A stretch of DNA of 60,235 nucleotides from IMG/VR virus record IMGVR_UViG_3300045007_000064, positions 1-60,235 of that record; one strand, 5' to 3'. The notes below the pieces were generated by a model. That model made no database searches. It was not told the origin of the DNA and saw only the letters and a list, made by a program, of their open reading frames with translations. This DNA comes from a virus (taxonomy: Duplodnaviria > Heunggongvirae > Uroviricota > Caudoviricetes). A program made the position numbers and the translations under genes. Shown one piece after another: positions 8,938-22,089 of this stretch (positions are counted from its first letter, which is position 1; every line of letters starts with the position of its first letter).

Positions 8938-9147
8938 TTAGTGCCCCTCGGGGTGGTATGCACTGTCGCAGTAGCACGGGGTCTTCCTGACCGGAGCCGA
9001 AGCCGGAGCGGGGTTGAGGTACGCGCTCGACACGTACGTGATATCAGCGAGCGAGTCCACAACGTGCGCGAGCGCGTCCGCCGCGTCGGCCTCACTCATG
9101 GGAGCGTCGGACGTGTCGATCTGGATGGTGATGGTTGCAGTACGCAT
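8938..9147 (-). CDS. hypothetical protein (cassette gene; C-terminal CxC..H..H)
   Basis: RBS AAGGGAGAGGAACCCGAA. Confidence 0.8.
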   Translation of the reverse strand: MRTATITIQIDTSDAPMSEADAADALAHVVDSLADITYVSSAYLNPAPASAPVRKTPCYCDSAYHPEGH

Positions 9148-9205
9148 TTCGGGTTCCTCTCCCTTGTGTTGATATCAGTCTACCCTATGCGGGCGATTGT
9201 GTCAA

Positions 9206-9550: not shown

Positions 9551-9567
9551 ATCTATATCCTACAACA

Positions 9568-9604
9568 GAAAAGCCCCGACTGTCAAGTGACAATCGGGGC
9601 GATT
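9568..9604 (-). terminator. terminator containing the downstream -35 box
   Basis: GCCCCGA stem followed by TTTTCT; TTGACA at 9586-81. Confidence 0.8.
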
Positions 9605-9613
9605 CCGGCGAGG

Positions 9614-9970
9614 TCAGGCGTCGATCAGCTCGGCGGCCTCCGACTTCTCGGCGTTGCTCTTCCGCGTCTCCGCGGCGGCCTTCGCGCGGCGGCGGCGGGC
9701 GAGGTAGTGCCCGTACTCGTCCAGGAGCGCCTGCGAGTAGCGACCGCGGGAGCCGACCGTGATCCCCTTCGCGGCGAGCTTGTCGGCGTTGGCACGCGCC
9801 CACGCGCGGATGTCGGACTCCTGCTGCTCCGCGACCTGGACGCGGACGTTGCCGATGGTCAGGTCCGCACCGGGGGTGATCGCGTCGGCGTCGAGCTTGG
9901 CGGCGAGCGAGCGCAGGTGCTTGGCGAGGTCGGCGTTGGACGTGTGCTTGATGTTGACGGTGGTACGCAT
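9614..9970 (-). CDS. Lsr2-like DNA-binding domain protein
   Basis: IRAWARAN...ITVGSRGRYSQALLDEY resembles the Lsr2 C-terminal RGR AT-hook domain; RBS AAAGGAAA. Confidence 0.75.
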   Translation of the reverse strand: MRTTVNIKHTSNADLAKHLRSLAAKLDADAITPGADLTIGNVRVQVAEQQESDIRAWARANADKLAAKGITVGSRGRYSQALLDEYGHYLARRRRAKAAAETRKSNAEKSEAAELIDA

Positions 9971-10098
9971 TGGTTTCCTTTGTTCGAAGTGATGGACTCT
10001 CTGTCCCTGTAGTAAATACATTACCCCATTCCGAAGGATTGTGTCAAGTCGATCTAAGAAAATCTTTCTTGATTCCGGAAGGCCCGAACCGCTCACGT

Positions 10099-10122
10099 CA
10101 CGCAAGAGTCCGCCCACTAAAC
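10099..10122 (+). promoter_or_regulatory. 24-bp intergenic motif
   Basis: CACGCAAGAGTCCGCCCACTAAAC. Confidence 0.85.
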
Positions 10123-10148
10123 GGAAAAGCCGGGATTTCTCCCGGCTT
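10123..10148 (-). terminator. intrinsic terminator
   Basis: GCCGGGA-GAAA-TCCCGGC followed by TTTT. Confidence 0.8.
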
Positions 10149-10153
10149 CCCGC

Positions 10154-10369
10154 TCAGACCAGCGCGCGACCCTCGCGGCTCATGTCCCACCACGAGAACA
10201 ACCCACCGCGGCTGTTCCGCTTGACTGCCGCCGTGATCGCGGCGTGGTCGTCCCCGTAGCGATCCGTCAACATGTCATGGTCGGAGGGCGAGACGTTGTA
10301 CTTCCGGTACGCCGCACGCTGCGCGTAGGTCAGTTCCCCGTAGGACTCGTCGTAAACCATCTTAGGCAT
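10154..10369 (-). CDS. hypothetical protein (cassette gene)
   Basis: RBS GGGAAAGGGAGG; promoter TTGCGT-17-TATACT. Confidence 0.8.
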   Translation of the reverse strand: MPKMVYDESYGELTYAQRAAYRKYNVSPSDHDMLTDRYGDDHAAITAAVKRNSRGGLFSWWDMSREGRALV

Positions 10370-10408
10370 TGGTGCCTCCCTTTCCCTTTGTTACTTACAG
10401 TATACGGC

Positions 10409-10443
10409 AAAAACGCCCTAGACGCAATGTCTAGGGCGCTTTT
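10409..10443. terminator. terminator with the -35 box in its loop region
   Basis: CGCCCTAGAC/GTCTAGGGCG stem with flanking A and T runs. Confidence 0.8.
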
Positions 10444-10451
10444 GGTTTCGG

Positions 10452-10658
10452 CTAGGGGAGAATCTCCCAGTCCCACTCGTCGTAATCGACGGCCACGGAC
10501 GTGAGCGTGTTGTCGAGGTCGAGGGCCACATAGGACTCATCCCCGATGAACGTCTCATCCCGGACGATCCCGACCAGAACGGACGGCGGCACGCCCTCGG
10601 CGCGCTTGCCGTAGTTGTCCTTGGCGGTGGCCTTGACGTGCTTTCCGATGTTGCTCAT
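10452..10658 (-). CDS. hypothetical protein (cassette gene)
   Basis: RBS GGGAAAGGGAGA. Confidence 0.8.
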   Translation of the reverse strand: MSNIGKHVKATAKDNYGKRAEGVPPSVLVGIVRDETFIGDESYVALDLDNTLTSVAVDYDEWDWEILP

Positions 10659-10733
10659 GGTTTCTCCCTTTCCCTGGAGTTATTACTATGAGCATACAAC
10701 AAAAACGCCCCGGATACAACCGGGGCGAGTTTG

Positions 10734-10826
10734 TTAGAGCATCGGCTCGCGGTGGGGGTTGTCCCTCCCCATCTGCGAGAGCATGAGCGCGAGGGTGATA
10801 ACCCCGGCGATGAGTGCGGCGATCAC
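10734..10826 (-). CDS. 30-aa membrane peptide MIAALIAGVITLALMLSQMGRDNPHREPML
   Basis: GTGA overlap with the upstream stop; followed by a terminator at 10700-10730. Confidence 0.55.
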   Translation of the reverse strand: MIAALIAGVITLALMLSQMGRDNPHREPML

Positions 10827-11200
10827 AGCGCCGCCACAATCGCCTGGATCGTGGCATCGCTCGGAATCTGCACGAACTTGTACGGCACCTTCGCGACGCA
10901 CTTCTCGTACGCCTCCGGGAAGGCCGACTTCATGAGGTCGTAGTCCGGCTTGGTCGCGTGCCGGAGGGAGGACAGCGAGGCGATGACCTGACCGCGCACG
11001 ACGATCTGTTCCTCGTCTCCCATCTCGGCGCGCAGCTCGGCTTCCAGCACCTTGCGCGTGCGCTCGGCGGCAGCGCCCGCGCGCTCGATGGTCTTGAGTT
11101 CTCCGATGCGCTTGACCTTCGCGAGCAGGTCGGCATCGTTGGTGACGTTGAGTCCGGGCTTGGTGTTCTTGTTCCGGCGCTGGGCGGTGGTGGTGGCCAT
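10823..11200 (-). CDS. hypothetical coiled-coil protein
   Basis: GAGGA RBS; promoter TTGACA-17-TAAGCT (11282-11254); alternative start 11212. Confidence 0.75.
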   Translation of the reverse strand: MATTTAQRRNKNTKPGLNVTNDADLLAKVKRIGELKTIERAGAAAERTRKVLEAELRAEMGDEEQIVVRGQVIASLSSLRHATKPDYDLMKSAFPEAYEKCVAKVPYKFVQIPSDATIQAIVAAL

Positions 11201-11302
11201 GAGAATCCTCATTCTCTAGTGGGAGTCCCCTTGTGGTGTGTCCCTGTACCTATAGCTTAGGGCATGTTCCCGCTAGTGTCAAGTCCCCCGCTCCCGGAGT
11301 CG

Positions 11303-11326
11303 AACGTAAGCATAATGGCACTAAAC
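11303..11326 (+). promoter_or_regulatory. 24-bp intergenic motif
   Basis: AACGTAAGCATAATGGCACTAAAC. Confidence 0.8.
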
Positions 11327-11366
11327 GGGCAGAGAAAAGCCCCCGCTGACCAGACGGGGGCGAATC

Positions 11367-11678
11367 TCAAAACGCCTCGTGAACCTCCGCGTCCAGCAGT
11401 CCAGCCGAGCGGGCGTAGACGCCGCGCTCCTTGGCCCAGGCGACCAGCTCCTTGTTCCGCGTGTTGCGGAAGGCCCCGAGGCCCTCAGGGGCGTCCTTGA
11501 CGCCGACGAGGGTTCCATCCGGCAGGGTGGCCTGCATGTAGCTGAGGTTCATGCCCGGGCGGACCCGGCGAGCGTTGGTGTCGTAGACGAGACCGGTGAG
11601 CCAGCGAACCTTGGTGACCTTGCCACCAGCGGCGATGAGTGCTGCGAGGGTCATGTAAACGGCGGGTGCAACGAACAT
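11367..11678 (-). CDS. hypothetical protein with a weak Lsr2-like C-terminus
   Basis: KELVAWAKERGVYARSAGLLDAEVHEAF; lacks the RGR motif. Confidence 0.65.
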   Translation of the reverse strand: MFVAPAVYMTLAALIAAGGKVTKVRWLTGLVYDTNARRVRPGMNLSYMQATLPDGTLVGVKDAPEGLGAFRNTRNKELVAWAKERGVYARSAGLLDAEVHEAF

Positions 11679-11777
11679 GATGTTCTCATTTCTCTTTTGA
11701 GTTACCAGGGCCGGTGTTTCCGACTAAGAACAATATACCAGGGTTCCAGGCATTGTGTCAACTTAAATACGAGAAAG

Positions 11778-11801
11778 ATTTAGTGCCTATATGCTTACGT
11801 G
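11778..11801 (-). promoter_or_regulatory. 24-bp intergenic motif
   Basis: CACGTAAGCATATAGGCACTAAAT. Confidence 0.8.
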
Positions 11802-11815
11802 TCCCCCGGAGGGGG

Positions 11816-12037
11816 TCACTCGAAAATGACCTTGCCCTTGGCCACCGCTTGCCTCCACTCGGCAGTGCCAGGGTCTAGTACCTCGCCCGTACGCGTGTTG
11901 ATTAGGGCTTCCGGCGCGTGTCCCGCGTCCGCTTGCGCGATGAGCGCGGCGCGATTGACCTTATTCAGGCGCATGCCACGGCCTATCAGTACGCCGACCA
12001 CGACGCACACGATGCCGAAAGCGATGAGCACAACCAT
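11816..12037 (-). CDS. small membrane protein
   Basis: N-terminal TM helix; leaderless TAAGCT-6-ATG. Confidence 0.75.
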   Translation of the reverse strand: MVVLIAFGIVCVVVGVLIGRGMRLNKVNRAALIAQADAGHAPEALINTRTGEVLDPGTAEWRQAVAKGKVIFE

Positions 12038-12055
12038 ATGTCTAGCTTACCAGAC

Positions 12056-12670
12056 TTAGGCGAGGTCGGCAACGTTGTACGAGTCGAACGCGCCCGCTCC
12101 CCAGTAGCGCCGCCGCCACACGACCCACGTCACGGCCTGCACGACCGCGGGGGACAGCGGCATGCCGTACTCACGCGAGAGGATGACGGACGCGCGGCGA
12201 TACTTGTCCGCGATTTCGTCATAGCGCTTGCGCGACAGCTTAGGCACATCGTTGGTCACCGAACGATCGTTGTGTGCCAGGCAGTACGCGTGCCTGTCAA
12301 TCGTCACGCCCTCCGCGCCGCCCGTAATGATGCTCAGGTAGAAGTTGTTGACCTTGAGACCGCCGAGCGCGTCGATAGTGCCCTCCGCAATGATCCGGCG
12401 AGCTTTCGCGAGGTTCGCACTGAGGTAGCCGGAGTCGAGGGTCCCACCGGACGCGAACATGCGCGCCGCGAGGTTGACGTTGTTCCCCCAGGAGTTGAGG
12501 GGAGACAGCGCGGCGAGCACACCGGCAGTCACGTGCACCGGGAGCGAGTGCTTAGCGGCGAACGCCTCAGCGATGAGACGAGCGTCCGCGTACCACGCGA
12601 TACCCTCAGCGATGAGGTCGGCGTCCGCAGAGCGGAAGACTGCCGTGATGTTGCGAGTGTGAAGAGCCAT
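12056..12670 (-). CDS. conserved phage protein, possible HhH-GPD glycosylase-like fold
   Basis: AALSP..W..N, LGGLKVNNF, VTIDRHA, VQAVTWVVWR; RBS GGGAAAGGGA; promoter TTGCAT-17-TAAGCT. Confidence 0.7.
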   Translation of the reverse strand: MALHTRNITAVFRSADADLIAEGIAWYADARLIAEAFAAKHSLPVHVTAGVLAALSPLNSWGNNVNLAARMFASGGTLDSGYLSANLAKARRIIAEGTIDALGGLKVNNFYLSIITGGAEGVTIDRHAYCLAHNDRSVTNDVPKLSRKRYDEIADKYRRASVILSREYGMPLSPAVVQAVTWVVWRRRYWGAGAFDSYNVADLA

Positions 12671-12780
12671 TGTGGATTCCCTTTCCCTTGGTGGCTGATA
12701 TCTACAGCTTACACCATGACGGGGGAGGATGCAAACCCTAATCCGAAACTAGTTCAAACCCGTATCCGCAATGCTCGTAC

Positions 12781-12804
12781 GTTTAGTGGCTAGACTCTTA
12801 CGTG
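12781..12804 (-). promoter_or_regulatory. 24-bp intergenic motif
   Basis: CACGTAAGAGTCTAGCCACTAAAC. Confidence 0.85.
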
Positions 12805-12849
12805 CTCCGGGCAGCAGAAAAGGCGACCCGCGTAGGGCCGCCCTTTCTG

Positions 12850-13182
12850 TCACGCGAACGGGTTGTAGATTGCTCCGGGATTTCCGCTGATCCGGCGAAG
12901 TTCCGCTTCGCGCTCGCGTGCGACCCGCGCGAAGTTCTCCCCGTACAGCTCTCGCTCCGGCTCTCCCGCGGCGATGTTGCGCTGAAGCTCCCGACGTGCG
13001 TTGTAGAGTGCTCCACTCATGACCCCGCCGATCACGTTGACCAGCGTGTGAGCCTCAGCGACCACGCGCCGCCTGTACTCGAACGGAACCTGAATAAGTT
13101 CCTTCGCCTGCGCGGGATGAATCCCGACACCGTATCCGCCCGCGTCGATGCTGGCCTGAAGTTCTGCGTCCGTATATTCCAT
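12850..13182 (-). CDS. hypothetical protein (cassette gene)
   Basis: RBS GGGAAAGGGAG; terminator at 12816-12848. Confidence 0.8.
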   Translation of the reverse strand: MEYTDAELQASIDAGGYGVGIHPAQAKELIQVPFEYRRRVVAEAHTLVNVIGGVMSGALYNARRELQRNIAAGEPERELYGENFARVAREREAELRRISGNPGAIYNPFA

Positions 13183-13268
13183 GATGCTCCCTTTCCCGGA
13201 GGTTGTATGTCCAGCATACACCATAGACACAGAAAAAGCGACCCGCATTACGCGGGCCGCTCATTCTG

Positions 13269-13676
13269 TCAGTCGTCCAGCCCCGTGAGGGTCGTCTCCC
13301 GACCGAAGGTCTCGAAGTACAGCTCCCGGGCGCGAACCCACTCGTCGGGGTCGTCCCACTCGCCATCGGACTCGATGCGGAAGTCCGGGGACTCCTCCCG
13401 GATGCGCAGGAGCGCGGCGCACACCACCACGTCATACGGCTCCCGGCCCGTCTTGCAGAAGTCCGAACCGCCCGACGCCGAGACCGAGAACGTCTCGTAG
13501 TCCTCGCCGTCCGCAGCCCAGCCGTTGAAACGGACCTCATCCGGCGTGAGGATCGGCTTGCCCTCACCGAGTCCATCCCCGATCTTGACGGCGGACCCCT
13601 CGATGATCTTGGCGATGTCCTCGATGACTTCGTTGCTCAGGATGGGCGTGCCCTCCCAATAGTGCGAGTATCCCAC
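13269..13676 (-). CDS. conserved phage hypothetical protein (MGYxHYW...FNG...FCKT.R.PYD)
   Basis: RBS GGAAAGGGAG; terminator at 13232-13262. Confidence 0.8.
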   Translation of the reverse strand: MGYSHYWEGTPILSNEVIEDIAKIIEGSAVKIGDGLGEGKPILTPDEVRFNGWAADGEDYETFSVSASGGSDFCKTGREPYDVVVCAALLRIREESPDFRIESDGEWDDPDEWVRARELYFETFGRETTLTGLDD

Positions 13677-13737
13677 GATGTTCTCCCTTTCCGGAGGTTG
13701 TTTGTTGATTACAGCTTACAGGAATGACAGCGAAGTG

Positions 13738-14112
13738 TCAAGCCTGCCGCTCGACGGCGAGAACTTCCACGGCCTCGAACCGGGCCTCCGAATCGGCATC
13801 CGTGGACGGGACGAACCAGCCCGCGCGGGTGCCGCGTGACTTGACGACACCGCTGCGCCCATCCACGAGGGTGATCTTGTCCCCCGCAGCGATGGTCAGG
13901 TGCCGCGCCATGATCCGCGCGTGCTCCCGGTGCAGCTCGGCGGTGTCGTAGTCCAGCCGATCCTGCGCGTTGTTGCGCTCGGTGCGGAGGTCCAGGTACT
14001 CATTCCCGGAAGCGGCACCACCGCTCTCCAGGTACTCCGTCATGGCCGACAGGGCGTCACTCACGCGCGCCTCCGACTCAGCGACCCTGATCCGCAGTTC
14101 TGCGTAGCTCAT
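13738..14112 (-). CDS. hypothetical protein (coiled coil plus SH3-like tail)
   Basis: RBS GGAAAGGGAAG. Confidence 0.8.
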   Translation of the reverse strand: MSYAELRIRVAESEARVSDALSAMTEYLESGGAASGNEYLDLRTERNNAQDRLDYDTAELHREHARIMARHLTIAAGDKITLVDGRSGVVKSRGTRAGWFVPSTDADSEARFEAVEVLAVERQA

Positions 14113-14188
14113 GTCTTCCCTTTCCGTGTGGCTGATATGGCCAGCTTACCACACATCGGAGCTAATGGGAAGTACCCTGCGCATCGGA

Positions 14189-14212
14189 GTTTAGTGCCAG
14201 TATGCTTACGTG
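14189..14212 (-). promoter_or_regulatory. 24-bp intergenic motif
   Basis: CACGTAAGCATACTGGCACTAAAC. Confidence 0.85.
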
Positions 14213-14221
14213 ATCGGCACA

Positions 14222-14414
14222 GCCAAGTGCCCCGGGCGTCCGTGTCAGAGACTTCCCGGGGCTGAATGGGACACCCACGCGCTCCGGCGTGGCATTCCTT
14301 GGTGACGTTTTTGCTACTCGCATGTGCACTGCGTTTTCGGGGCCGTCTCCCCCACACCCCAGTCCGAAGACTGGACGCACTAGGCCTAAGTGGTTTATCC
14401 TCCCCTAGTGGAGT
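14222..14414 (-). ncRNA. candidate structured ncRNA (~190 nt)
   Basis: promoter TTGCGG-17-TAAGCT (14449-14421); CACUAGG/CCUAGUG stem, C(UUCG)G hairpin 14359-74, GGGG/CCCC and CCACGC/GCGUGG stems, terminal GCCCCGGG stem. Confidence 0.6.
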
Positions 14415-14432
14415 ACTTACAGCTTACCGCAC

Positions 14433-14831
14433 TTAGGCCGAAACCGCAAGGGCGAAATCGAGGGCGTCCGAAGCGAACGCCTCCCGGGCGGCAGCATCCC
14501 CGAGGACGTAATCGTCCTCAAATCGGGAGGGGAACTCATCCGCGAAGTCGGAGAGTGCCACGGCAGGATCGAGGTCGTCCAGGCGACCGTGAACGGCGGC
14601 GAAGATGAGCCGGTACGCGCGGGGCTTGATGACCTCGAACAGTCCTTCGGACTCGTCGGGGCGGATCAGCCGCACCGCGTTGCAGATCAACTCGCACATG
14701 CCACGCATGTACTCGTCGTAATCCGGCTCCGGGAGGTCGGTCTCACCCGCCCAACCCTCGGCGGCGGCTTGGATGATGAGCTTGCCGCACGGGTCGAATG
14801 CGTGGACAAACTTGACCTTGGTAACGCTCAT
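14433..14831 (-). CDS. acidic hypothetical protein
   Basis: RBS GGGAAAGGGAG; TAAGCT promoter. Confidence 0.8.
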   Translation of the reverse strand: MSVTKVKFVHAFDPCGKLIIQAAAEGWAGETDLPEPDYDEYMRGMCELICNAVRLIRPDESEGLFEVIKPRAYRLIFAAVHGRLDDLDPAVALSDFADEFPSRFEDDYVLGDAAAREAFASDALDFALAVSA

Positions 14832-14891
14832 GATGCTCCCTTTCCCAAAGCTCTGTTGTTACCTACAGCTTACAGCACCCGAACCGCATTG

Positions 14892-15197
14892 TCAATGCAA
14901 GTCCTCGTACAGCCCGGCCACCTTCCGCAGCGCGAGCTTGGCATCCTCCACACGCTGATACTGCGAGGCGTACGGGTAGGCCTCCGTCCGGAGGTCGGTG
15001 TACGCCGCGTCGAGTTCCGCCATAGCGGCATCGAACTTGGCGGCATCGACCTTCGGGCCGACCGGCACGCCGTGGTCGCTCGCGTACTCCAGGATCGCGT
15101 ACTCATCGAAGTCGTCGTAGTCCTCGAACTCCACGATGACCGAATTGGTCAGGTCGGTGATCGAACCATCACCCGTGTTGACAACGTAAGTGCTCAT
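14892..15197 (-). CDS. acidic hypothetical protein
   Basis: RBS GAAAGGGAAA; TTGACA-17-TAAGCT. Confidence 0.8.
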   Translation of the reverse strand: MSTYVVNTGDGSITDLTNSVIVEFEDYDDFDEYAILEYASDHGVPVGPKVDAAKFDAAMAELDAAYTDLRTEAYPYASQYQRVEDAKLALRKVAGLYEDLH

Positions 15198-15226
15198 GAG
15201 ATTTCCCTTTCTCGAATACCTACAGC

Positions 15227-15418
15227 TTACCGCACGTCGGCAGGCTTGTCAACTGGCCACATGAACTCGTGCGCGTTGTCCGGGGTGATGCCGAACAGGT
15301 TGAGCATGTCAGCGGTGTTGTCCTCGGCGGGGCGCTCCGAAGCGACCGCACCCGCCATGACGGCGCAGAAAGCCGCACCGACCGCACAGGCGATGATCCC
15401 CAGGGTGATGATGTCCAT
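15227..15418 (-). CDS. small membrane protein
   Basis: N-terminal TM helix; starts 2 nt after the upstream stop. Confidence 0.7.
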   Translation of the reverse strand: MDIITLGIIACAVGAAFCAVMAGAVASERPAEDNTADMLNLFGITPDNAHEFMWPVDKPADVR

Positions 15419-15420
15419 GC

Positions 15421-15837
15421 TCAGGCCCCGTAGTCGAGACGGATGCCGCCGCCCAGGATGCCGACCGCACGCCCGAACTCTGGGAGGGCCGCCGCGGCCT
15501 CCCCGGCGAAGCACACGGCATCGAACTCCTCGAACGGCGAGTCACCCCAGCTCATGCCGCCGAAGGTCAGGAAGTACAGGGCATCGTTGCCGGGAATCTC
15601 CCACGACGCGACATACGGGTCTCCGAGGCGGGAGTCGTCGATGAACTTGACGCCCTCCACGATGGAAGCGATGAGGTCGTCCACGGCGGTCTCTTCGTCC
15701 TCGAAGAATCCTGCCGCGTCGATGTCATCGAGCTTCGCGGCGATCTGGTCACGGAAAGACTCCACAACCGCGCGAACGTCCTCGATGCTCTTGCTCTTCT
15801 CGGCAGTCAGTCCGCCGCCGATGTATGATGCGCCCAT
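15421..15837 (-). CDS. acidic hypothetical protein
   Basis: RBS GAAAGGGAGG. Confidence 0.8.
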   Translation of the reverse strand: MGASYIGGGLTAEKSKSIEDVRAVVESFRDQIAAKLDDIDAAGFFEDEETAVDDLIASIVEGVKFIDDSRLGDPYVASWEIPGNDALYFLTFGGMSWGDSPFEEFDAVCFAGEAAAALPEFGRAVGILGGGIRLDYGA

Positions 15838-15946
15838 TTGGGGCCTCCCTTTCTCTCTTACGCCTAGCTTACACCGCATCCGCATCAGAGTCAAATGCAC
15901 CTTACCGGCATATCCTCCGAACATGCGCGTATCGGGCATACGGCAT

Positions 15947-15970
15947 CACGCAAGAGGACTGGCACTAAAC
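15947..15970 (+). promoter_or_regulatory. 24-bp intergenic motif
   Basis: CACGCAAGAGGACTGGCACTAAAC. Confidence 0.85.
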
Positions 15971-16081
15971 AAAGAGGGGCCGGATTTCTCCGACCCCTCA
16001 CTAGGATTATTTTTCAACTAAATTTAGGTAAGATGGGTGGGTACCCACTAGGGCGGCGCGCGTGTCATGTCCGCATCCTGC

Positions 16082-16336
16082 CTAGTCGATGAACCGCTCG
16101 CGAACGCGCTGCGGCCCGTACTCGATCCACCAGGCCAGCGTGTGCGACTCGCCGGGGACCGCTTCGTGGTCCTCCCACGCCTCATCGGCATCGTCACCGC
16201 GCGACAGGTGCCACCACGGCGCGATGTTGTCGGGGTCGTCCTCGTACGAGGAATTGACCTCCACGAAAAGCGGGCACGGCTCCCCGTCTTCGTTGTGACC
16301 GGCGCAGAGGATGTAATCCGGCTCTTTGAGTGACAT
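16082..16336 (-). CDS. hypothetical protein (C..H..C...H)
   Basis: RBS CAGGGAAAGGGA; TTGACA-17-TAAGGT. Confidence 0.8.
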   Translation of the reverse strand: MSLKEPDYILCAGHNEDGEPCPLFVEVNSSYEDDPDNIAPWWHLSRGDDADEAWEDHEAVPGESHTLAWWIEYGPQRVRERFID

Positions 16337-16368
16337 GTGATTCCCTTTCCCTGGAATGTACTACCACC

Positions 16369-16848
16369 TTACCGCACGTTGGCCAGCGTGTCAACCTTGC
16401 GGTACGTGATGACGTGCGCGGGGTTGTACTTGGTCGGGTCGCACTTGTAGCAGGACCGATTGTTGCGCGGCTTGCGCCAGAATCGGTAGGTGGACACGTG
16501 ACCCGCGGGGCACGTTCCGACCCACGGCGCGGCTTCCGCTCGCAGGTTCGGCGCGTCGGTGGTGGCGGCGGTGGGGTTGGCTCCCAGCCGCAGGGCGATG
16601 ATCTTCCACGCGCGTCCGTGTCCCGCGGTGGGACCGGCAAGTGCGTGTGCAACCTCGTGACGAATGGTGTCCATCACCTGTTCGGCGGTACTCGCCTTGG
16701 TCATCGGACGCGAGAGCGTGATCGTCTTGTCCCGGTAGTTGCACGATCCCAGACGCTGAACGGCATTGTCCCAGCGGAACTTCCACTCCAGCGGCAGGTT
16801 TGCGGCCATGACTCCCAGCGCCATGACGCGGGCCTCTTCAAGATTCAT
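16369..16848 (-). CDS. SprT-like zinc metalloprotease
   Basis: LGSC...ITLS...IRHEVAHAL...GHGRAWK and a C-terminal C..H/CxxC finger; RBS GAGGGAAGGGAACCC. Confidence 0.85.
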   Translation of the reverse strand: MNLEEARVMALGVMAANLPLEWKFRWDNAVQRLGSCNYRDKTITLSRPMTKASTAEQVMDTIRHEVAHALAGPTAGHGRAWKIIALRLGANPTAATTDAPNLRAEAAPWVGTCPAGHVSTYRFWRKPRNNRSCYKCDPTKYNPAHVITYRKVDTLANVR

Positions 16849-16912
16849 CGGGTTCCCTTCCCTCGTGTGATACCAGCATACCCTATCCGCACCGCATCTG
16901 CAAGCTGGAATC

Positions 16913-16936
16913 CGCGCAAGAGTCCTGCCACTAAAC
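16913..16936 (+). promoter_or_regulatory. 24-bp intergenic motif
   Basis: CGCGCAAGAGTCCTGCCACTAAAC. Confidence 0.85.
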
Positions 16937-16940
16937 GGAG

Positions 16941-16992
16941 AAACCCCCGGAGCGCGCGGGGGAAAGGGGAAAGGGAGGCGCGCCCCGGGGGT
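16941..16992 (-). terminator. 15-bp hairpin with a 20-nt anti-SD loop CUCCCUUUCCCCUUUCCCCC
   Basis: stem 16978-92/16943-57 with one G.U on the minus strand, just after the stop of 17006..17353. Confidence 0.75.
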
Positions 16993-17005
16993 GGTTTGTG
17001 TGCGC

Positions 17006-17353
17006 TTAGCGCTGGAAGTCGAGGTCGTAGATTTCGACCTCGCGGGCGTTCTCGACCAGGCGCAGGATCGCGGCCCAGTTGGTCTTGCCCTTCTGACCGG
17101 TGACGTACCAGTTCTCGCCTGTCTCGCGCGGGTTCTCGGTCCGCATCGCGAGGTACTGATACGTGGTCCGCCCGCTGCCGGGGAACTTGGCCTCGATGAG
17201 GACCTTACTGCCGGGTTCCGGCTCATCGTACTTCGATGCTGAAGCCTCGGCCTCAGCGATCCGGGCGAGGACCAGCTCACGCTCGGCGGCGAGACGGTCG
17301 GCTTCAGCGCGCAGCTCAGCCGCGCGGCTCTTGGTGGATCGGATGCTTGCCAT
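17006..17353 (-). CDS. hypothetical protein
   Basis: leaderless TTGACA-18-TAGGAT-6-ATG. Confidence 0.8.
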   Translation of the reverse strand: MASIRSTKSRAAELRAEADRLAAERELVLARIAEAEASASKYDEPEPGSKVLIEAKFPGSGRTTYQYLAMRTENPRETGENWYVTGQKGKTNWAAILRLVENAREVEIYDLDFQR

Positions 17354-17362
17354 GATGTAATC

Positions 17363-17590
17363 CTACTCTCTCGGCGGGCTGGTTGTCAAGCCCGCTCGCC
17401 ACGATTTCCGGTAGAAATCGCGCGGTTCGTTGTGGTTCGGGTAATCCTCGCTCGCGAGCAGAGAATCCAGGTAGTAGATACCGGCATCGGTAAGCCACTC
17501 CCCATCGATGAGCGGTACGTCCTCTTCGGCATGCCGGATGTCCCCGATCACGCCCGCTTTGAGCGCGACCAGGGGCACCTCATCCGGCAT
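17363..17590 (-). CDS. hypothetical protein
   Basis: TGATG coupling with the upstream gene. Confidence 0.7.
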   Translation of the reverse strand: MPDEVPLVALKAGVIGDIRHAEEDVPLIDGEWLTDAGIYYLDSLLASEDYPNHNEPRDFYRKSWRAGLTTSPPRE

Positions 17591-17916
17591 CACTGGCTCA
17601 GGTCCGTCCAGTCGCGGCGGTAGCCGATCCGGAACCGACTCTGCCAGCGCTCCATCGGCTCGCCCTTGACGATGTAGGTGCCGTCCTTGCGGAGCGTGAT
17701 CGTCTTGATGGGACCGTCCGGGTCCGGCTCGTACGTCTTCTCGCCGTCGTCACCCCAGGCGTGCCCCGGCGTGACCACGGTCACCTTGTCGGCCTGCACG
17801 TCCAGCTCGCGCCCGTTGCGGCGCACGGCGATGACCGTGTACGCGCGGTGCAGTCCACCGAGCGCGGTGGAGTAGGTGGCACCCGTGCCGACCTCGATCT
17901 GAGTTTCAGTGTCCAT
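17590..17916 (-). CDS. hypothetical protein
   Basis: RBS CAGGGAAAGGGAG; TTGCAA-17-TAAGCT. Confidence 0.8.
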   Translation of the reverse strand: MDTETQIEVGTGATYSTALGGLHRAYTVIAVRRNGRELDVQADKVTVVTPGHAWGDDGEKTYEPDPDGPIKTITLRKDGTYIVKGEPMERWQSRFRIGYRRDWTDLSQ

Positions 17917-17949
17917 CTGTCTCCCTTTCCCTGGAGTGTTGACTACAGC

Positions 17950-18111
17950 TTACCGCATTGCCTCGCGATTTGCAAGCATGCGTTGCTTGACCTGCGCGTC
18001 AGTCGGCGCAGTCCATCCATGGAACCCCACCGCACGATGCCACAGGATCGAGTGCTCGTGCTTGCCCGCGCCGCACCAGGTGCAGCCATACGGGTTGAGG
18101 TAGACGTTCAT
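17950..18111 (-). CDS. 53-aa CxxC...H protein
   Basis: leaderless TTGACA-17-TACACT-6-ATG. Confidence 0.75.
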   Translation of the reverse strand: MNVYLNPYGCTWCGAGKHEHSILWHRAVGFHGWTAPTDAQVKQRMLANREAMR

Positions 18112-18155
18112 GACTCCAGTGTACGGCATCCGCATCCGCATGTCAAATCGGACCG

Positions 18156-18179
18156 CACGCAAGAGTCCGGGCACTAAAC
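18156..18179 (+). promoter_or_regulatory. 24-bp intergenic motif
   Basis: CACGCAAGAGTCCGGGCACTAAAC. Confidence 0.85.
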
Positions 18180-18218
18180 CCAAATGCCCCGCATCCGCAG
18201 ATACGAGGCATTTAGGTG

Positions 18219-18247
18219 TTGACTTTTGGATTTCGTTGCCCTATACT
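18219..18247 (+). promoter_or_regulatory. near-consensus rightward promoter facing leftward genes
   Basis: TTGACT-17-TATACT followed by a CAGGGAAAG leader but no start codon. Confidence 0.65.
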
Positions 18248-18286
18248 AGAGATATCAGCAAGAACAACTACACAGGGAAAGCGGGA

Positions 18287-18505
18287 TCAGGTCCGAACGG
18301 CGGCGGCGGTGATCCCCTGGAAGCGGAAGTTCCGGACCGCGGCGAACGCATCGGCGGCGTTCAAACCGGTGAGGTCCTTGTCCTTCTTCTCCTTCCGGTC
18401 ATAGACCGTGAGGACGGTTCCATCCGGGGCCTTGACGCTCCAGGAGGTCGAGTCGGACAGGGGCTTGCTGGTTCGGCGGTCCTTACCGCTTCCGTTCACT
18501 GACAT
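18287..18505 (-). CDS. hypothetical protein
   Basis: leaderless TACGGT-6-ATG. Confidence 0.7.
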   Translation of the reverse strand: MSVNGSGKDRRTSKPLSDSTSWSVKAPDGTVLTVYDRKEKKDKDLTGLNAADAFAAVRNFRFQGITAAAVRT

Positions 18506-18517
18506 GGCTCTACCGTA

Positions 18518-18712
18518 TCAGGCTTGCGGTTCGGTGTCAAGCGAGTGGGTGAACTTCTCGTCATCGTACTCGACGTACTGCTCACCGTACTCATTCTTGA
18601 CGGTCACACGGATAACGTCTCCGGTGTCGTCCACGCCGACCAGCTCGCCGGTCAGGCTGATAGCCTTCTCGCCGTTGTCTCGGCGGGTCACGGTTACCTT
18701 AGTCTGAGTCAT
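18518..18712 (-). CDS. hypothetical protein
   Basis: leaderless TAGGAT-6-ATG. Confidence 0.75.
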   Translation of the reverse strand: MTQTKVTVTRRDNGEKAISLTGELVGVDDTGDVIRVTVKNEYGEQYVEYDDEKFTHSLDTEPQA

Positions 18713-18724
18713 CCCGGTATCCTA

Positions 18725-18973
18725 TCAGGCCTTGAGTGCTTTGTCTACCGCGGTTAGACACTTGCGGCACACAACGGTTACGGTCTCGCCGTCTAGCACT
18801 ACACCGAACGGTCGCCAACTCACCGTGCCGTCTCCCCCTTGAACTTCACCCGCGGTTGCCTTACAGGCCCCGCATCGTGCCGTCTCATTCAGGCCGTATA
18901 CCGGCAGGCCTGCGGTTTCCAGTAGTCGTACATCTCGTGCCGTTTCGAGATAGTGTACCTCAATATGTCTCAT
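18725..18973 (-). CDS. zinc-ribbon protein (CGAC...CRKC)
   Basis: leaderless TAGGGT-6-ATG. Confidence 0.75.
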   Translation of the reverse strand: MRHIEVHYLETARDVRLLETAGLPVYGLNETARCGACKATAGEVQGGDGTVSWRPFGVVLDGETVTVVCRKCLTAVDKALKA

Positions 18974-19006
18974 ACGGTTACCCTATCAGACATTTCGCTG
19001 CGTGAT

Positions 19007-19780
19007 TTACGGTTCTACGCGCAGGCCGGTTTCTTCGAGGTTCTGGAGTGCCGGGTAGGTAATCTCGCCACGGTTGCGAACCTCGCCGGTTTCCCGTGCG
19101 AACGCGCCGAACGCGCTCTTGAACACGCCGTCCCGCTTGCCACGGTTGAACAGGCCGTCCTTGCCTCGACCGGTTGGCATCCACTCGGGCCGCACGGTTC
19201 CCAGTGCCGTCTGTACGGTTTCGACCGCACGCGCTACGGTCTTGCCGTTCGAGTCGAAGTAGCTCATCCGCACGGTTACGGTTTCACCCGCGGTTACCTT
19301 CCGGGCCGGTCGCGGTCGCACGAATCCGAGTACGTCCGTGCCGTACCGCACCCGTTCGTGTACGCCGTCTGCGAGCTGGATGCCCTGAGGCTTGCCACTG
19401 AAGGTCTGACCCTCCACGGTTCGGAAGCTTCCGTCCGCACGGAGTTCGGTTACCACGCCGACATGCGGTTGACGGTCCCACTCGCCGGGGTCCGCGCTGA
19501 AGTTGAAGAACACGATATCGCCTACCCGCGGCTTACGGTACAGACGGTTCCGGGTTGTGTAGTAGGCCAGGGCCGCAACGGTTGACTGGAATGAGACTTC
19601 CGGCGCGGTTCCGAACGCATCGGTGAGGATACGGTTGACGAACGAGCCGTTCCATTCCGTGCCCTCGTATGTCCGCGGGCTGAATGCGCTCCGCTTCTCG
19701 GGCTGTGCGTGGTAGCCAACCTGCCGTTGTGCGGCCTCGACAATCTTCGCCGGTAGCGCTCGCCGCATCCTACGGTTCAT
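19007..19780 (-). CDS. CHAP-domain protein lacking the catalytic Cys, with a degenerate PG-binding C-terminus
   Basis: IVEAAQRQVG...WNGSFV...GDIVFF...PHVGVV...TVEGQT. Confidence 0.75.
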   Translation of the reverse strand: MNRRMRRALPAKIVEAAQRQVGYHAQPEKRSAFSPRTYEGTEWNGSFVNRILTDAFGTAPEVSFQSTVAALAYYTTRNRLYRKPRVGDIVFFNFSADPGEWDRQPHVGVVTELRADGSFRTVEGQTFSGKPQGIQLADGVHERVRYGTDVLGFVRPRPARKVTAGETVTVRMSYFDSNGKTVARAVETVQTALGTVRPEWMPTGRGKDGLFNRGKRDGVFKSAFGAFARETGEVRNRGEITYPALQNLEETGLRVEP

Positions 19781-19952
19781 TGAAGCTGTCCTTCCACATC
19801 TTGGTCAGCACGGTTACAGCCGCGTCATCCTGAGTCTCACCCTGGATGGCGAGAATGGTCTCGCTGAAGTCTAGCAGGGATTTAACCTCCGTGCTGTTGA
19901 ACCTCTCACGGTTCGCTTGCCGGATCAGGGCGCGGGCGAACTCAGGCTTCAT
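19770..19952 (-). CDS. hypothetical protein
   Basis: leaderless TTGACA-18-TAGAAT-6-ATG. Confidence 0.75.
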   Translation of the reverse strand: MKPEFARALIRQANRERFNSTEVKSLLDFSETILAIQGETQDDAAVTVLTKMWKDSFNEP

Positions 19953-20115
19953 CCGTGGATTCTACCGTACGAGCGGTTTCGCTGTCAAGGACTCGCTGGA
20001 GGTCACCCCAGAGTGCTCGGAGGTTGACCAGCTCGGCGCGGGTAGACGCGGTTGCCGCGGCGCGCTCAATGCTGTGCTGCATTTCGCGCAGACGGTTCAG
20101 GTTCTCACTGCTCAT
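19942..20115 (-). CDS. 57-aa helical protein (MSSENLNRLREMQ...)
   Basis: GAGGTG RBS; fills the gap between neighbours. Confidence 0.65.
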   Translation of the reverse strand: MSSENLNRLREMQHSIERAAATASTRAELVNLRALWGDLQRVLDSETARTVESTDEA

Positions 20116-21010
20116 CCTCGATCACCTCCGCCTCAACGGTTTCGGCCTCGCCCGCCTCAACGTCCGCAACGTGCTGGAGAATCTTGGCCCGTTCCATCTG
20201 GCCCTTGCGTAGCTTCTCCAGACGCTTACGGATTTCCTCGGCGTTTTCGTTGACGGTTACCTCAACCTTAGTCTCAACCTCAATGGCTCCGCGGTTGCCG
20301 GTACGGTCCAGCAGCGAGTTGGCTGCACCGAGTCGGACGGATTCACTCTCCGCGGTTGCCGCTAGCTCTTCGAGAATGGCGGCGGCTGCGGGAGCGGCAG
20401 ACTGTAGACGGTTGCGAGTTAGCTGGGCCGCGCTGATCTGGATCGCCGGGGATCGACCCGCGCGCCGTGCGTGGAGTCGGCACATGCCCGCGGTATCGGT
20501 TGAGCCGTCCGACCACTGCCAGCATCGGGTACCGTCAGCCTTGACGGTTGAGCATCGGGTCGGTACATTTACCAGACGGGTTTGGTACAGATCGGCGTCC
20601 GGTCCGAGTGCGCGCATCTCGTCCTGCTGGCGCATGTAGGTGCGCGTGACCTTGAGAACCCACGTCGGTGCGAGGGAGGTGGAGTCCTCCGCGAGCAGGA
20701 GGCGAAGGCCGGAGAGATAGTCGGAGTTGTAATCTTCCGGGTCTTCGAGTAGCTTGGTCTTGGAGAGTGCCTGAGCGGCAGCTAGCATTTCCGCACTCAC
20801 TACCTGAATGTAGCCGGTCGGCATTCCATCGGTATCAAAGACTACGTTCCACTGAGCCTTATTCTGCTTGATGACTCGGCGGTTCTCGTAGGTGTCCTCT
20901 ACCACACCTCGTTCGATTTCTTCGAGGCCCCATTCAGACAGGTTCGGCAGTAGGCCCGGGGGAGCTTCGATCTGTAGCTCGGCGGGTTCGCCTGACTCGA
21001 TTTCCTTCAT
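20105..21010 (-). CDS. putative terminase small subunit-like protein
   Basis: HGGxSTG-type C..C..C..H module (RCSTVKADGTRC...CRLH) plus ESVRLGAANSLLDRTG and a coiled-coil tail. Confidence 0.55.
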   Translation of the reverse strand: MKEIESGEPAELQIEAPPGLLPNLSEWGLEEIERGVVEDTYENRRVIKQNKAQWNVVFDTDGMPTGYIQVVSAEMLAAAQALSKTKLLEDPEDYNSDYLSGLRLLLAEDSTSLAPTWVLKVTRTYMRQQDEMRALGPDADLYQTRLVNVPTRCSTVKADGTRCWQWSDGSTDTAGMCRLHARRAGRSPAIQISAAQLTRNRLQSAAPAAAAILEELAATAESESVRLGAANSLLDRTGNRGAIEVETKVEVTVNENAEEIRKRLEKLRKGQMERAKILQHVADVEAGEAETVEAEVIEDEQ

Positions 21011-21241
21011 TGTACAATTCCTAAGAAGTATGAACGTAGTTGCTCAGCAAACCATTTACTGAGGCAGAAACCACTACAATTCCCGGTTTAGGGAGCTTTG
21101 CAGCATCTCATTCTACGCTCTATTATACATCTCTTAGGATTGGTGATCAGACGGTCCCGTAACGCTCCATAATCACCTTGGCCCACTCCACGAGGTCTTC
21201 CGGTCGCTGACCTGACGGTTGCGTGGTATTTGACGGCTGCG

Positions 21242-21445
21242 TTATCGCCAGAGGTCGTACTCACCTCGGCGGATGCGCCGCTGAATCTCTCGCTCGATCA
21301 GTCTGCCGAGCAACCGCGTCCGAGAGTCCTTACGCCGGAGCCGTGCCACGCCCACACCGTAGTCCGATAGGGACTTGTCGGTCAGCTTTCGCAGGACCGG
21401 CACGGTTGACCGGACGACCACGGCGGTTGTCCTACGGATTCTCAT
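21242..21445 (-). CDS. small basic protein
   Basis: GAGGAG RBS. Confidence 0.65.
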   Translation of the reverse strand: MRIRRTTAVVVRSTVPVLRKLTDKSLSDYGVGVARLRRKDSRTRLLGRLIEREIQRRIRRGEYDLWR

Positions 21446-21629
21446 TGAACTCCTCGAAATCCGGCTGGTGATTCTGGTCGCGGTCGGTGTCGTGGGTCAC
21501 GCGCTTGGTGCCCTGCACGGCGGTCGGCGGGATGATCCGCTGTCCTCCCGGAGCGTTCTTCGGAATGTTCAGCCCCAGCGACTCCCAGAGGGTCATCCCC
21601 GGCTTCTTGTACGGATGCGGATCAGCCAC
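21432..21629 (-). CDS. hypothetical protein
   Basis: GTG overlapping the upstream gene. Confidence 0.6.
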   Translation of the reverse strand: MADPHPYKKPGMTLWESLGLNIPKNAPGGQRIIPPTAVQGTKRVTHDTDRDQNHQPDFEEFNENP

Positions 21630-22089
21630 GGTTGAACTCCAACTTCTCCACCGAGTAGTACTCGTCACGGACGGTTGCCGATTTCCACTCCTCGAATTCC
21701 AGAGGGGTCTTCAGGGAGAGGGTCGGCTTGCCCATGTAGTCCGAAGGCTCCAGACCCTTCTCAGCCAGAGCACTCCACGCGAGGAGTCGCTGAGCGTGTG
21801 CCTCCTGCTTGACCTGGTTCTCGCGGTCGGTCTTCAGCATGTACTCGACGTACTTGCCGGGGTAGTCGTTGAGGCGGTCCGCTTCGGCCTGAGCCTCCTC
21901 CTCGGAGCGGAAGAACCCCTTATTGGTCTCCACCTTCTCGTCCCAATCGGGACGGTAGTGCCCCGAGTCATACGACCAGTTGTAGACCAGCACCCAGATC
22001 GGAGCCTCGACCAGCTCGCGAATCTTCTCCAGGGTCATCTTTCCCGGGACGGTGGGCCAGTCCTTGTGACCGAACTCGTTGTCACTCAT
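21622..22089 (-). CDS. hypothetical protein
   Basis: 155-aa ORF from ATG 22089. Confidence 0.75.
   Translation of the reverse strand: MSDNEFGHKDWPTVPGKMTLEKIRELVEAPIWVLVYNWSYDSGHYRPDWDEKVETNKGFFRSEEEAQAEADRLNDYPGKYVEYMLKTDRENQVKQEAHAQRLLAWSALAEKGLEPSDYMGKPTLSLKTPLEFEEWKSATVRDEYYSVEKLEFNRG

What the first reader, a model, noticed from the sequence alone, without database searches (positions are those of the whole stretch)
18690..21676. Strand-polarised ACGGTT hexamer cluster written into coding DNA around the terminase-small-subunit-like gene
Seen: about 26 ACGGTT on the + strand in 3 kb (17 in 18690-19913), against well under 1 per kb expected by composition, plus many GCGGTT. I noticed no AACCGT on + here and only scattered copies elsewhere. 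The hexamers fall in different frames of several genes (E-T-V, V-T-V, N-R) and use otherwise uncommon A/T-ending codons, so selection appears to act on the DNA. Known: pac sites of P22, Sf6 and SPP1 lie in or near the small terminase gene. Inference: a packaging-initiation or other polar protein-loading zone.
Basis: partly seen in the sequence, partly recalled or inferred. Interest (0 to 1): 0.83.

Follow-up and report, generated by a model that had tools for sequence, protein, structure and literature searches.

The report
Polar motif array at phage genome end
About 46 same-strand copies of a 5-6 base DNA word are written into the genes flanking the physical left end of a large Microbacterium phage genome, over its small-terminase-like gene. 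They are most likely a multi-site landing pad for the DNA-packaging machinery, though no binding has been shown.

Summary
Window 18415-21676 holds 46 CGGTT on the + strand (27 as ACGGTT) against 1 reverse complement. About 4 would be expected. This is the strongest local k-mer cluster in the 171-kb genome.

The genes here lie on the minus strand, so the sense-strand word is (C/G)AACCG(T/C). Synonymous-codon controls give 12-20 copies against 44 observed.

The key new fact is position. Five related ~190-kb Microbacterium phage records all begin 61-62 nt upstream of the ortholog of gene 20105-21010. In Big4 that point is the left edge of an exact 17,669-bp direct terminal repeat. The array therefore runs from about -600 to +2,700 around a physical genome end, near window 21072.

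The gene's product is a true small-terminase homolog (profile against solved NV1 and PaP3 TerS, E 5e-8). It carries an added CCCH zinc ribbon and a 150-residue N-terminal domain with no fold match.

Relatives keep the density but turn over half of the sites. One distant relative uses AACGG instead. Host genomes show no enrichment or strand skew, so a host Chi-like role is disfavoured.

Best reading (about 0.45): an avidity-based, polar terminase docking zone. Binding is untested. Earlier notes of this scan (not checked here) describe similar arrays of 11-12-mers in E. coli phages.

The parts
18415..20884 (-). Main array inside the terminal repeat: 40 copies of sense-strand AACCG (CGGTT on +), written through seven genes from the TerS-like gene to gene 18287-18505
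   Evidence: Synonymous-codon controls.
21084..21676 (-). Upstream arm of the array: 6 copies in the last small genes of the unique region, just outside the terminal repeat. Big4 has 4 AACCGT at the same place.
20885..21083 (-). Motif-poor zone that holds the inferred physical left end (about window 21072, +/- 20), 62 nt upstream of the gene-1 ATG at 21010
   Evidence: Five relatives' records start 61-62 nt upstream of the orthologous ATG. Alignment of the junction. The position in this genome is inferred by homology, not mapped.
20105..21010 (-). TerS-like gene (301 aa): N-terminal domain with no fold match, an invariant CCCH zinc ribbon (C153, C163, C177, H180), and a C-terminal TerS core
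   Evidence: Profile against solved NV1 TerS (7joq, E 5e-8) and PaP3 TerS (6w7t, E 8e-5). PHROG terminase-small-subunit hits. Alignment. Models.
21122..21129 (-). Conserved TGTATAAT box (-10-like), about 50 nt upstream of the inferred end. It would be cut away from the left copy of the repeat in virion DNA.
19007..19780 (-). CHAP-domain 'endolysin' gene, the most densely loaded gene of the array (19 sites)
3240..21072 (-). Inferred single collapsed copy of the ~17.8-kb direct terminal repeat. The array occupies its first ~2.7 kb.
   Evidence: The Big4 repeat is exactly 17,669 bp. Its right boundary maps to about window 3240, and the own contig is circularly collapsed.

Best explanation
The array is a cis-acting DNA signal for genome packaging. 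It is a polar, high-density field of short recognition words, (C/G)AACCG(T/C), flanking the left cutting site of a phage with fixed ends and a direct terminal repeat. The proposed reader is the small terminase encoded inside the array.

Proposed mechanism (inferred). The TerS-like protein forms the usual ring through its C-terminal core. Its flexibly tethered N-terminal and zinc-ribbon modules each bind one short word weakly. Only where words occur every ~20-100 bp can one or several rings make many contacts at once. The array therefore gives specificity by avidity without any long site. That would explain why density and orientation are conserved while individual positions turn over, and why spacing is unphased. 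The uniform orientation would fix which way the terminase faces, so cutting happens in the motif-poor gap and packaging proceeds into the repeat, as in the lambda order cosN-cosB-Nu1.

Shown here: the array exists, it is polar, it is selected at the DNA level, it lies at the inferred end, it is conserved with turnover, and the gene is a TerS homolog.

Not shown: who binds the word, the direction of packaging, and the exact end in this genome.
For: 1. Position. Five related records (Big4, Zooman, Cece, A3Wally, Pumpernickel) begin 61-62 nt upstream of the orthologous gene 1. In Big4 this is the left edge of an exact 17,669-bp terminal repeat. In each of them AACCG is packed into the first 2.5-3.5 kb: Big4 42, Zooman 37, A3Wally 29, Pumpernickel ~30, Cece 24. 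Big4 has 4 more AACCGT just outside the repeat.

2. The gene inside the array is a TerS homolog (E 5e-8 and 8e-5 to solved TerS). It is the only TerS candidate annotated in these relatives (Cece gene 1). The large terminase lies elsewhere.

3. Selection acts on the DNA. There are 44 copies against 12-20 under synonymous-codon controls, and all three frames and intergenic DNA are used.

4. Density is kept rather than position. Own and Big4 share 20 of 40-42 sites, against 23% conservation for all 5-mers, while half of the sites are lineage-specific.

5. The word changes with the phage lineage. A 45%-GC relative, whose gene-1 protein is 42% identical, carries 19 AACGG (2 reverse complements) at the same place.

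6. It is not a host-genome word. ACGGTT occurs 256-431 times per strand in three Microbacterium genomes, at or below the composition expectation. Around nrdE in 19 Microbacterium species the counts are 33 against 37 on the two strands.

7. From established knowledge: TerS sites of lambda (cosB), SPP1 (pacL/pacR), P22, Sf6 and P1 lie in or beside the TerS gene and next to the cut.
Against: No binding or packaging data exist for any member of this phage group.

The scale, about 46 sites over 3.3 kb of coding DNA, exceeds every described pac or cos site by an order of magnitude.

The spacing shows no 10.5-bp phasing, so a regular wrapped complex is unlikely.

The DNA-binding helix-turn-helix of the solved PaP3/NV1 TerS (residues 1-40; PMC7672466) is not the part that aligns. 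The reader module is therefore only guessed.

Other homologs of the protein sit in loci without any array. These are L094 and L096 (43% and 38% identical) and the more remote L098-L100.

All sites also share the direction of transcription, so an RNA-level reading fits the polarity equally well.

Confidence: 0.45

Rival explanations
1. A phage-specific Chi-like signal. The words, read as 5'-RCGGTT-3' on the strand whose 3' end lies at the left terminus, would stop or switch a helicase-nuclease entering at that end. This is most plausibly the phage's own Cas4-type exonuclease plus helicase, working with its RecA-like protein. Resection would then halt inside the repeat and the end would be channelled into repeat-to-repeat recombination, giving concatemers.
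For: The array is end-proximal, strictly polar, dense and unphased, as expected for a signal read by a translocating enzyme. The orientation fits the Chi rule for entry at the left end (my reasoning from the known RecBCD and AddAB polarity). Relatives encode a RecA-like recombinase, a Cas4-family exonuclease, a helicase and a RuvC-like resolvase side by side. A phage-encoded reader would explain the change of word with lineage.
Against: No mirror-image array exists near the right end of the repeat. Six or seven sites lie outside the repeat, upstream of the end, where such a signal would not be needed. No phage-encoded Chi system is known. Co-location with the TerS gene is left unexplained.
Confidence: 0.12
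2. A replication signal. The words would be a field of priming or loading sites for the phage Prim-Pol/D5-type primase-helicase on the lagging-strand template of forks that run toward the left end, or a diffuse origin.
For: Short strand-specific words of 3-5 nt are how primases choose start sites (established for T7 gp4 and T4 gp61). CGGTT read as template would specify a primer ACCG. The phage has its own primase-helicase.
Against: The primase is an AEP Prim-Pol fused to an SF3 helicase, not the zinc-finger/TOPRIM type with known pentamer sites. I saw no tight iteron cluster or AT-rich unwinding element, though I checked only at coarse resolution. A primase site would be needed genome-wide, yet the word is at background level elsewhere (1 per kb) and scarcer in the rest of the repeat.
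Confidence: 0.12
3. An RNA-level signal. AACCG(U/C) repeated in the mRNA of the first operon would be read by an RNA-binding protein or a nuclease that times or limits expression of these genes.
For: Every site is on the sense strand of the genes it lies in. The array ends near the end of the first gene block. 5-6 nt is the typical size of a single-strand recognition element. The top fold-search rows for the N-terminal domain of the gene-1 protein are RRM domains, but only at E >= 0.24, so this is a lead and not evidence.
Against: The array crosses a conserved promoter-like box and the genome end, so it covers at least two transcription units. Its placement tracks the physical end in all relatives. 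No RNA family or structure is involved. The fold matches are not significant.
Confidence: 0.12
4. A DNA-entry signal at the leading end, comparable in role to the T5 first-step-transfer controls. A host or virion protein would bind the first DNA to enter the cell.
For: The array is at the extreme end of a long repeat that makes up ~9% of the genome and is full of small genes, as in T5. A separate conserved G-tract cluster sits ~500 bp inside the other edge of the repeat. The T5 stop signal sits in a similar position (bioRxiv 10.1101/866236).
Against: Which end enters first is unknown. The T5 signals are non-coding inverted repeats and DnaA boxes at the inner edge of the repeat, not coding direct words at the outer edge. 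Sites outside the repeat are not explained.
Confidence: 0.08
5. A host Chi- or KOPS-type word borrowed by the phage to tame the host RecBCD, AdnAB or FtsK.
For: The polarity and end-proximity fit.
Against: ACGGTT is not over-represented in three Microbacterium genomes: 256-431 per strand in 2.9-3.6 Mb, against roughly 520 per 3.6 Mb expected from composition. It shows no strand bias over 411 kb around nrdE in 19 species, 33 against 37. A distant relative uses a different word.
Confidence: 0.04

Closest known systems
Lambda cosB (R1-R3 sites for gpNu1) with cosN and cosQ
   Same: Repeated TerS-binding words lie just inside the first-packaged end, directly before or over the TerS gene at the left end of the genome. 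They are polar with respect to packaging.
   Different: Lambda has three 16-bp sites in about 120 bp of non-coding DNA plus an IHF site, and cohesive ends. Here there are about 46 words of 5-6 bp over 3.3 kb of coding DNA, on both sides of the end, and the genome has a 17.7-kb direct terminal repeat.
SPP1 pac (pacL - pacC - pacR) and P1 pac (seven TGATCA/G hexamers)
   Same: Short repeated boxes flank a cleavage region. Part of the site lies inside the terminase gene. Recognition is by many weak contacts of a TerS ring (SF6/SPP1-type TerS, PMC4737164; P1 hexamers from my own knowledge).
   Different: Those sites span 160-300 bp with 3-7 boxes and serve headful packaging with imprecise cuts. 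The P1 hexamers are palindromic and therefore not polar. Here the array is ten times larger, strictly polar and tied to a fixed end.
Polar 11-12-mer arrays around the TerS gene at the left edge of the terminal repeat of E. coli Wifcevirus-type phages
   Same: Same architecture: same-strand words run through coding and non-coding DNA, bracket the small-terminase gene just inside the physical left end of a genome with a direct terminal repeat, and are conserved in distant relatives.
   Different: Those arrays have about 10-12 copies of a long word in 1.2-1.5 kb. This one has about 46 copies of a 5-6 bp word in 3.3 kb, and the phage and TerS families are unrelated. I did not re-test those notes.
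Chi (RecBCD/AddAB) and KOPS (FtsK) polar words
   Same: Short, strictly oriented, unphased words embedded in coding DNA and read as density by a moving enzyme.
   Different: Those words are spread over whole chromosomes, over-represented and skewed with replication. This word is at background level in host genomes and in the rest of the phage genome, and it forms a single local cluster.
T5 repeat regions / injection stop signal in the left terminal repeat
   Same: Conserved cis-acting repeat structures inside a long terminal repeat of ~8-9% of the genome.
   Different: The T5 elements are non-coding inverted repeats, palindromes and DnaA boxes near the inner edge of the repeat (bioRxiv 10.1101/866236). 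This array is coding, direct and at the outer edge.

Membership tests
TerS recognition site (pac / cosB type) | Lies next to the terminase cutting site or physical genome end | tested here: met
   Five relatives' records begin 61-62 nt upstream of gene 1, and the Big4 repeat edge is exact. For this genome the position is by homology only.
TerS recognition site (pac / cosB type) | Lies in or beside the TerS gene | tested here: met
   The array covers gene 20105-21010, a TerS homolog.
TerS recognition site (pac / cosB type) | A few repeated boxes within about 100-300 bp | tested here: not met
   About 46 words over 3.3 kb, median spacing 56 bp, no phasing.
TerS recognition site (pac / cosB type) | Bound by TerS and required in cis for packaging | not testable with these tools
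   Needs EMSA, DAP-seq or ChIP, and recoded phages.
Small terminase (for the 20105-21010 product) | Sequence homology to the oligomerisation core of solved TerS | tested here: met
   Profile A1 against 7joq (E 5e-8, query 173-278 to chain 40-148) and against 6w7t (E 8e-5). phrog_2538 at 6e-6.
Small terminase (for the 20105-21010 product) | N-terminal helix-turn-helix DNA-binding domain | tested here: inconclusive
   The aligned part starts after the HTH of PaP3/NV1. In its place are a CCCH zinc ribbon and a 150-residue domain with no significant fold match.
Small terminase (for the 20105-21010 product) | Gene adjacent to the large terminase gene | tested here: not met
   The large terminase is at Big4 24.0-26.3 kb and at own genome 166.3-168.6 kb, separated from gene 1 by the repeat and a block of opposite-strand genes.
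Chi-type host recombination hotspot | Over-represented in the host genome | tested here: not met
   256-431 ACGGTT per strand in three Microbacterium genomes of 2.9-3.6 Mb, at or below the composition expectation.
Chi-type host recombination hotspot | Strand bias co-oriented with replication | tested here: inconclusive
   33 against 37 over 411 kb around nrdE in 19 Microbacterium species. No whole-replichore analysis was done, and the true host is unknown.
KOPS/SRS-type translocase-guiding words | Genome-wide skewed distribution converging on a target site | tested here: not met
   There is one local cluster only. Elsewhere there is about 1 per kb on either strand.
Replication-origin iterons | Tight cluster of 10-22-bp iterons beside an AT-rich unwinding element | tested here: inconclusive
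   The words are 5-6 bp and dispersed over 3.3 kb. GC stays near 0.60 at 2-kb resolution. No fine-scale search for an unwinding element was made.
T5-type injection stop region | Non-coding inverted repeats, palindromes and DnaA boxes at the inner edge of the left repeat | tested here: not met
   The array is coding, direct and at the outer edge. T5 features are from bioRxiv 10.1101/866236.

The most novel reading that the evidence does not exclude
The words are not static docking sites. They would be a virus-encoded polar guide sequence read by a moving enzyme. One version is a phage-specific Chi that halts the phage's own Cas4-type nuclease-helicase inside the terminal repeat and hands the end to the phage RecA for concatemer formation. 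The other is a KOPS-like signal telling a translocating terminase that it has entered the repeat and must terminate at the repeat's far edge. Either would be the first such guide system owned by a virus.
Probability: 0.15. Interest if true: 0.85.

Novelty: new variant of a known kind. Interest (0 to 1): 0.62.

Why it matters
How phages with long exact terminal repeats (T5, SPO1 and many large actinophages) find and cut their ends is largely unknown.

This array offers a concrete, testable cis element and a candidate reader protein for one such group. It also suggests a general principle: specificity from the density and orientation of a very short word, tolerated inside genes through synonymous and conservative codon choices, rather than from one long site.

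If confirmed, it would allow ends and packaging direction to be predicted from sequence alone in related metagenomic phages. It would also explain unusual codon usage in the genes at the genome end. Similar arrays noted by this scan in unrelated E. coli phages hint that the layout is widespread.

Tried and rejected
1. Host Chi/KOPS idea. I counted the word in three Microbacterium genomes and in 19 nrdE loci and found no enrichment and no skew.

2. Helical phasing of the sites. None was found at 9.5-11.5 or 21 bp.

3. A longer hidden motif. A logo over 158 sites shows only S-AACCG-Y.

4. A second, mirror array at the other end of the repeat or elsewhere. None was found.

6. Fold of the whole gene-1 protein and of its N-terminal 185 residues against the PDB. 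No significant match: Foldseek best E 0.24-0.6, VIA wide best Z 3.7. The RRM-like rows are too weak to use.

7. Arrays in other homolog loci. L094, L096 and the more remote L098-L100 have none, so co-variation of word and protein rests on a single AACGG lineage.

8. T7-type primase sites. The phage primase is Prim-Pol/D5, not gp4-like.

9. Promoter and terminator scan of the region. It explained nothing about the array.

10. Literature searches found no paper on these phages or on such arrays. The Matilda jumbo-phage preprint was read and is not relevant.


Full report
**1. Observation**

The window holds 46 ACGGTT on both strands, against 23.9 +/- 4.9 in dinucleotide shuffles. Of these, 27 lie on the + strand between 18414 and 21676, with no AACCGT on + there. 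An unbiased k-mer comparison of 18001-22000 with the rest of the 171,128-bp genome shows that the enriched core is the pentamer CGGTT. It occurs 46 times against 4.3 expected, with 2 reverse complements. ACGGTT occurs 27 times against 0.85, and GCGGTT 13 times against 1.4. A scan of every 5- and 6-mer in 3-kb windows across the genome ranks this cluster first by far. No 500-bp window elsewhere holds more than 4 copies, while the array reaches 14.

**2. Coding context**

The genes here are on the minus strand, so the sense-strand word is AACCG followed by T or C and preceded by C or G. A logo over 158 sites in four phages shows nothing longer. Of 48 sites, 31 are xxA-ACC-Gxx, 10 are AAC-CGx, 5 are xAA-CCG and 2 are intergenic.

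I held the ten protein sequences fixed and varied only the codons. Resampling from genome-wide codon usage gives 12.0 +/- 2.6 AACCG. Permuting synonymous codons within each gene gives 19.7 +/- 2.6. The observed count is 44. Selection therefore acts on the nucleotide sequence. It has probably also shaped the proteins, because even the resampled expectation is above the genome background of about 1 per kb.

**3. Where the array lies**

The genome is related, at about 68-72% DNA identity, to ~190-kb Microbacterium siphophages: Big4, Zooman, Cece, A3Wally and Pumpernickel. All five records begin 61-62 nt upstream of gene 1, the ortholog of window 20105-21010. In Big4, positions 1-17669 are identical to 174695-192363, an exact direct terminal repeat.

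The own contig has no terminal repeat. Big4 aligns across its ends, so it is a circularly collapsed assembly with one copy of the repeat. By homology the left end lies near window 21072 and the right edge of the repeat near window 3240.

Relative to that end, the words run from about -600 to about +2,700. A sparse zone from about -150 to +520 holds the end itself. That the relatives' record ends reflect mapped virion ends is my inference from how such records are usually made.

**4. Conservation**

The same word fills the first 2.5-3.5 kb of every relative: Big4 42, Zooman 37, A3Wally 29, Pumpernickel about 30, and Cece 24 over 4.4 kb. Few reverse complements occur. Metagenomic contigs whose gene-1 protein is only 45-56% identical also carry it: L091 26, L093 31 against 1 in the rest of the locus, L097 36.

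Own and Big4 share 20 of 40-42 sites. That compares with 23% conservation for all 5-mers in the same alignment. The other half of the sites is lineage-specific in each genome. Existing sites are retained and new ones are gained, so density and orientation are what is kept.

One 45%-GC contig (L095), whose gene-1 protein is 42% identical, has 19 AACGG and 2 reverse complements at the same place. Other homolog loci have no array: L094, L096, and the more remote L098-L100.

After the array the sense-strand word is scarcer than average in the rest of the repeat. The own genome has 6 against 16 expected (P 0.004), Big4 has 8 against 14.7, and A3Wally has 1 against 7.4. This effect is modest.

**5. 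The gene inside the array**

The 301-residue product has no Pfam match and weak PHROG terminase-small-subunit hits. A profile of 23 homologs matches the solved small terminases of Pseudomonas phages NV1 (7joq, E 5e-8) and PaP3 (6w7t, E 8e-5) over residues 173-278. That region is the TerS core. It does not include the N-terminal helix-turn-helix that binds DNA in PaP3 (PMC7672466).

Directly before the core are four invariant residues, C153, C163, C177 and H180, which make a zinc ribbon. The first 150 residues fold confidently (pLDDT 86) but match no solved fold.

The family is large, with 1,436 cluster representatives. Many 150-250-residue members have only the ribbon plus core. The large terminase is far away, and no other TerS candidate is annotated in the relatives.

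**6. Tests of rival readings**

- *Host Chi or KOPS.* ACGGTT is not enriched in three Microbacterium genomes. It shows no strand bias over 411 kb in 19 species.
- *Regular nucleoprotein wrapping.* There is no 10.5-bp phasing.
- *T7-type primase sites.* The primase is Prim-Pol plus an SF3 helicase.
- *T5-type stop region.* Those elements are non-coding inverted repeats at the inner edge of the repeat.
- *RNA-level reading.* All sites are sense-strand, which is compatible. However, the array crosses a conserved TGTATAAT box and the genome end, so it spans more than one transcription unit.
- *Phage-owned recombination signal.* Relatives encode a RecA-like protein, a Cas4-type exonuclease, a helicase and RuvC together. 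No mirror array exists at the other end.

**7. Best reading**

The position at the end, the overlap with the only TerS homolog, DNA-level selection, conserved density with turnover, and a lineage-specific word fit best with a packaging signal read by the phage's own terminase.

I propose avidity. Many weak contacts form between flexibly tethered DNA-binding modules of TerS rings and a dense, uniformly oriented field of short words. This explains the lack of phasing and of positional conservation, and it gives direction to cutting and packaging.

I put this at about 0.45. The recombination, replication and RNA readings each get about 0.12, an entry signal 0.08, and a host Chi-type word 0.04.

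**8. Comparison and novelty**

In layout the array works like lambda cosB or the SPP1 pacL/pacR boxes. It fails the size criterion of those sites and has not been shown to bind TerS. I therefore call it a new variant of a known kind, not a member.

Earlier notes of this scan describe polar arrays of 11-12-mers around the TerS gene at the left edge of the terminal repeat of E. coli Wifcevirus-type phages. I did not re-test them. They suggest the layout may be general. My literature searches found nothing on these Microbacterium phages or on such arrays.

Noticed in passing
window 3702-3753 (C7, C8, C12 on +, so G runs on the gene-sense strand); Big4 17124-17190 (G10, G7, G7, G9, G8): A conserved cluster of long G tracts, with G-quadruplex potential, lies in non-coding DNA about 460-550 bp inside the right edge of the terminal repeat. 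The T5 injection-stop region sits in a comparable position. It could be a termination or entry signal.
   Followed up: partly
window 21122-21129 (minus strand): A TGTATAAT -10-like box is conserved in own, Big4, Cece, L091, L093 and L097, 25-90 nt upstream of the inferred genome end. The left copy of gene 1 in virion DNA would lack this promoter. Only the right copy, or concatemers, would have it.
   Followed up: partly
window about 3240-21072: The assembly holds one collapsed copy of a ~17.8-kb direct terminal repeat and is circularly permuted relative to the relatives' records. The true genome is probably about 189 kb.
   Followed up: partly
window 3240-17900; Big4 3001-17669; A3Wally 2601-10000: After the array the sense-strand word AACCG is scarcer than the genome average in the rest of the repeat: 6 against 16, 8 against 14.7, and 1 against 7.4. 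The antisense word is at normal frequency.
   Followed up: partly
L095 5345-7086: A 45%-GC metagenomic relative has a polar array of AACGG (19 copies, 2 reverse complements; 5 copies extended to AACGGCT), starting at its gene-1 homolog. The word is different but the layout is the same.
   Followed up: partly
window 20105-21010 (minus), residues 1-185 of the product: The TerS-like protein has a confidently folded 150-residue N-terminal domain with no solved-structure match, and an invariant C-x9-C-x13-C-x2-H zinc ribbon. About 60 full-length cluster representatives exist in metagenomes.
   Followed up: partly
window 19988-19959 (minus strand): A near-consensus promoter (TTGACA, 18 nt, TAGAAT) lies inside the array, placed so that gene 19770-19952 would be transcribed as a leaderless mRNA.
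   Followed up: no
L092, L093, L094, L099, L100: Several independent metagenomic contigs that carry gene-1 homologs start 450-730 bp upstream of that gene. This may reflect assembly breaks near the repeat edge.
   Followed up: no
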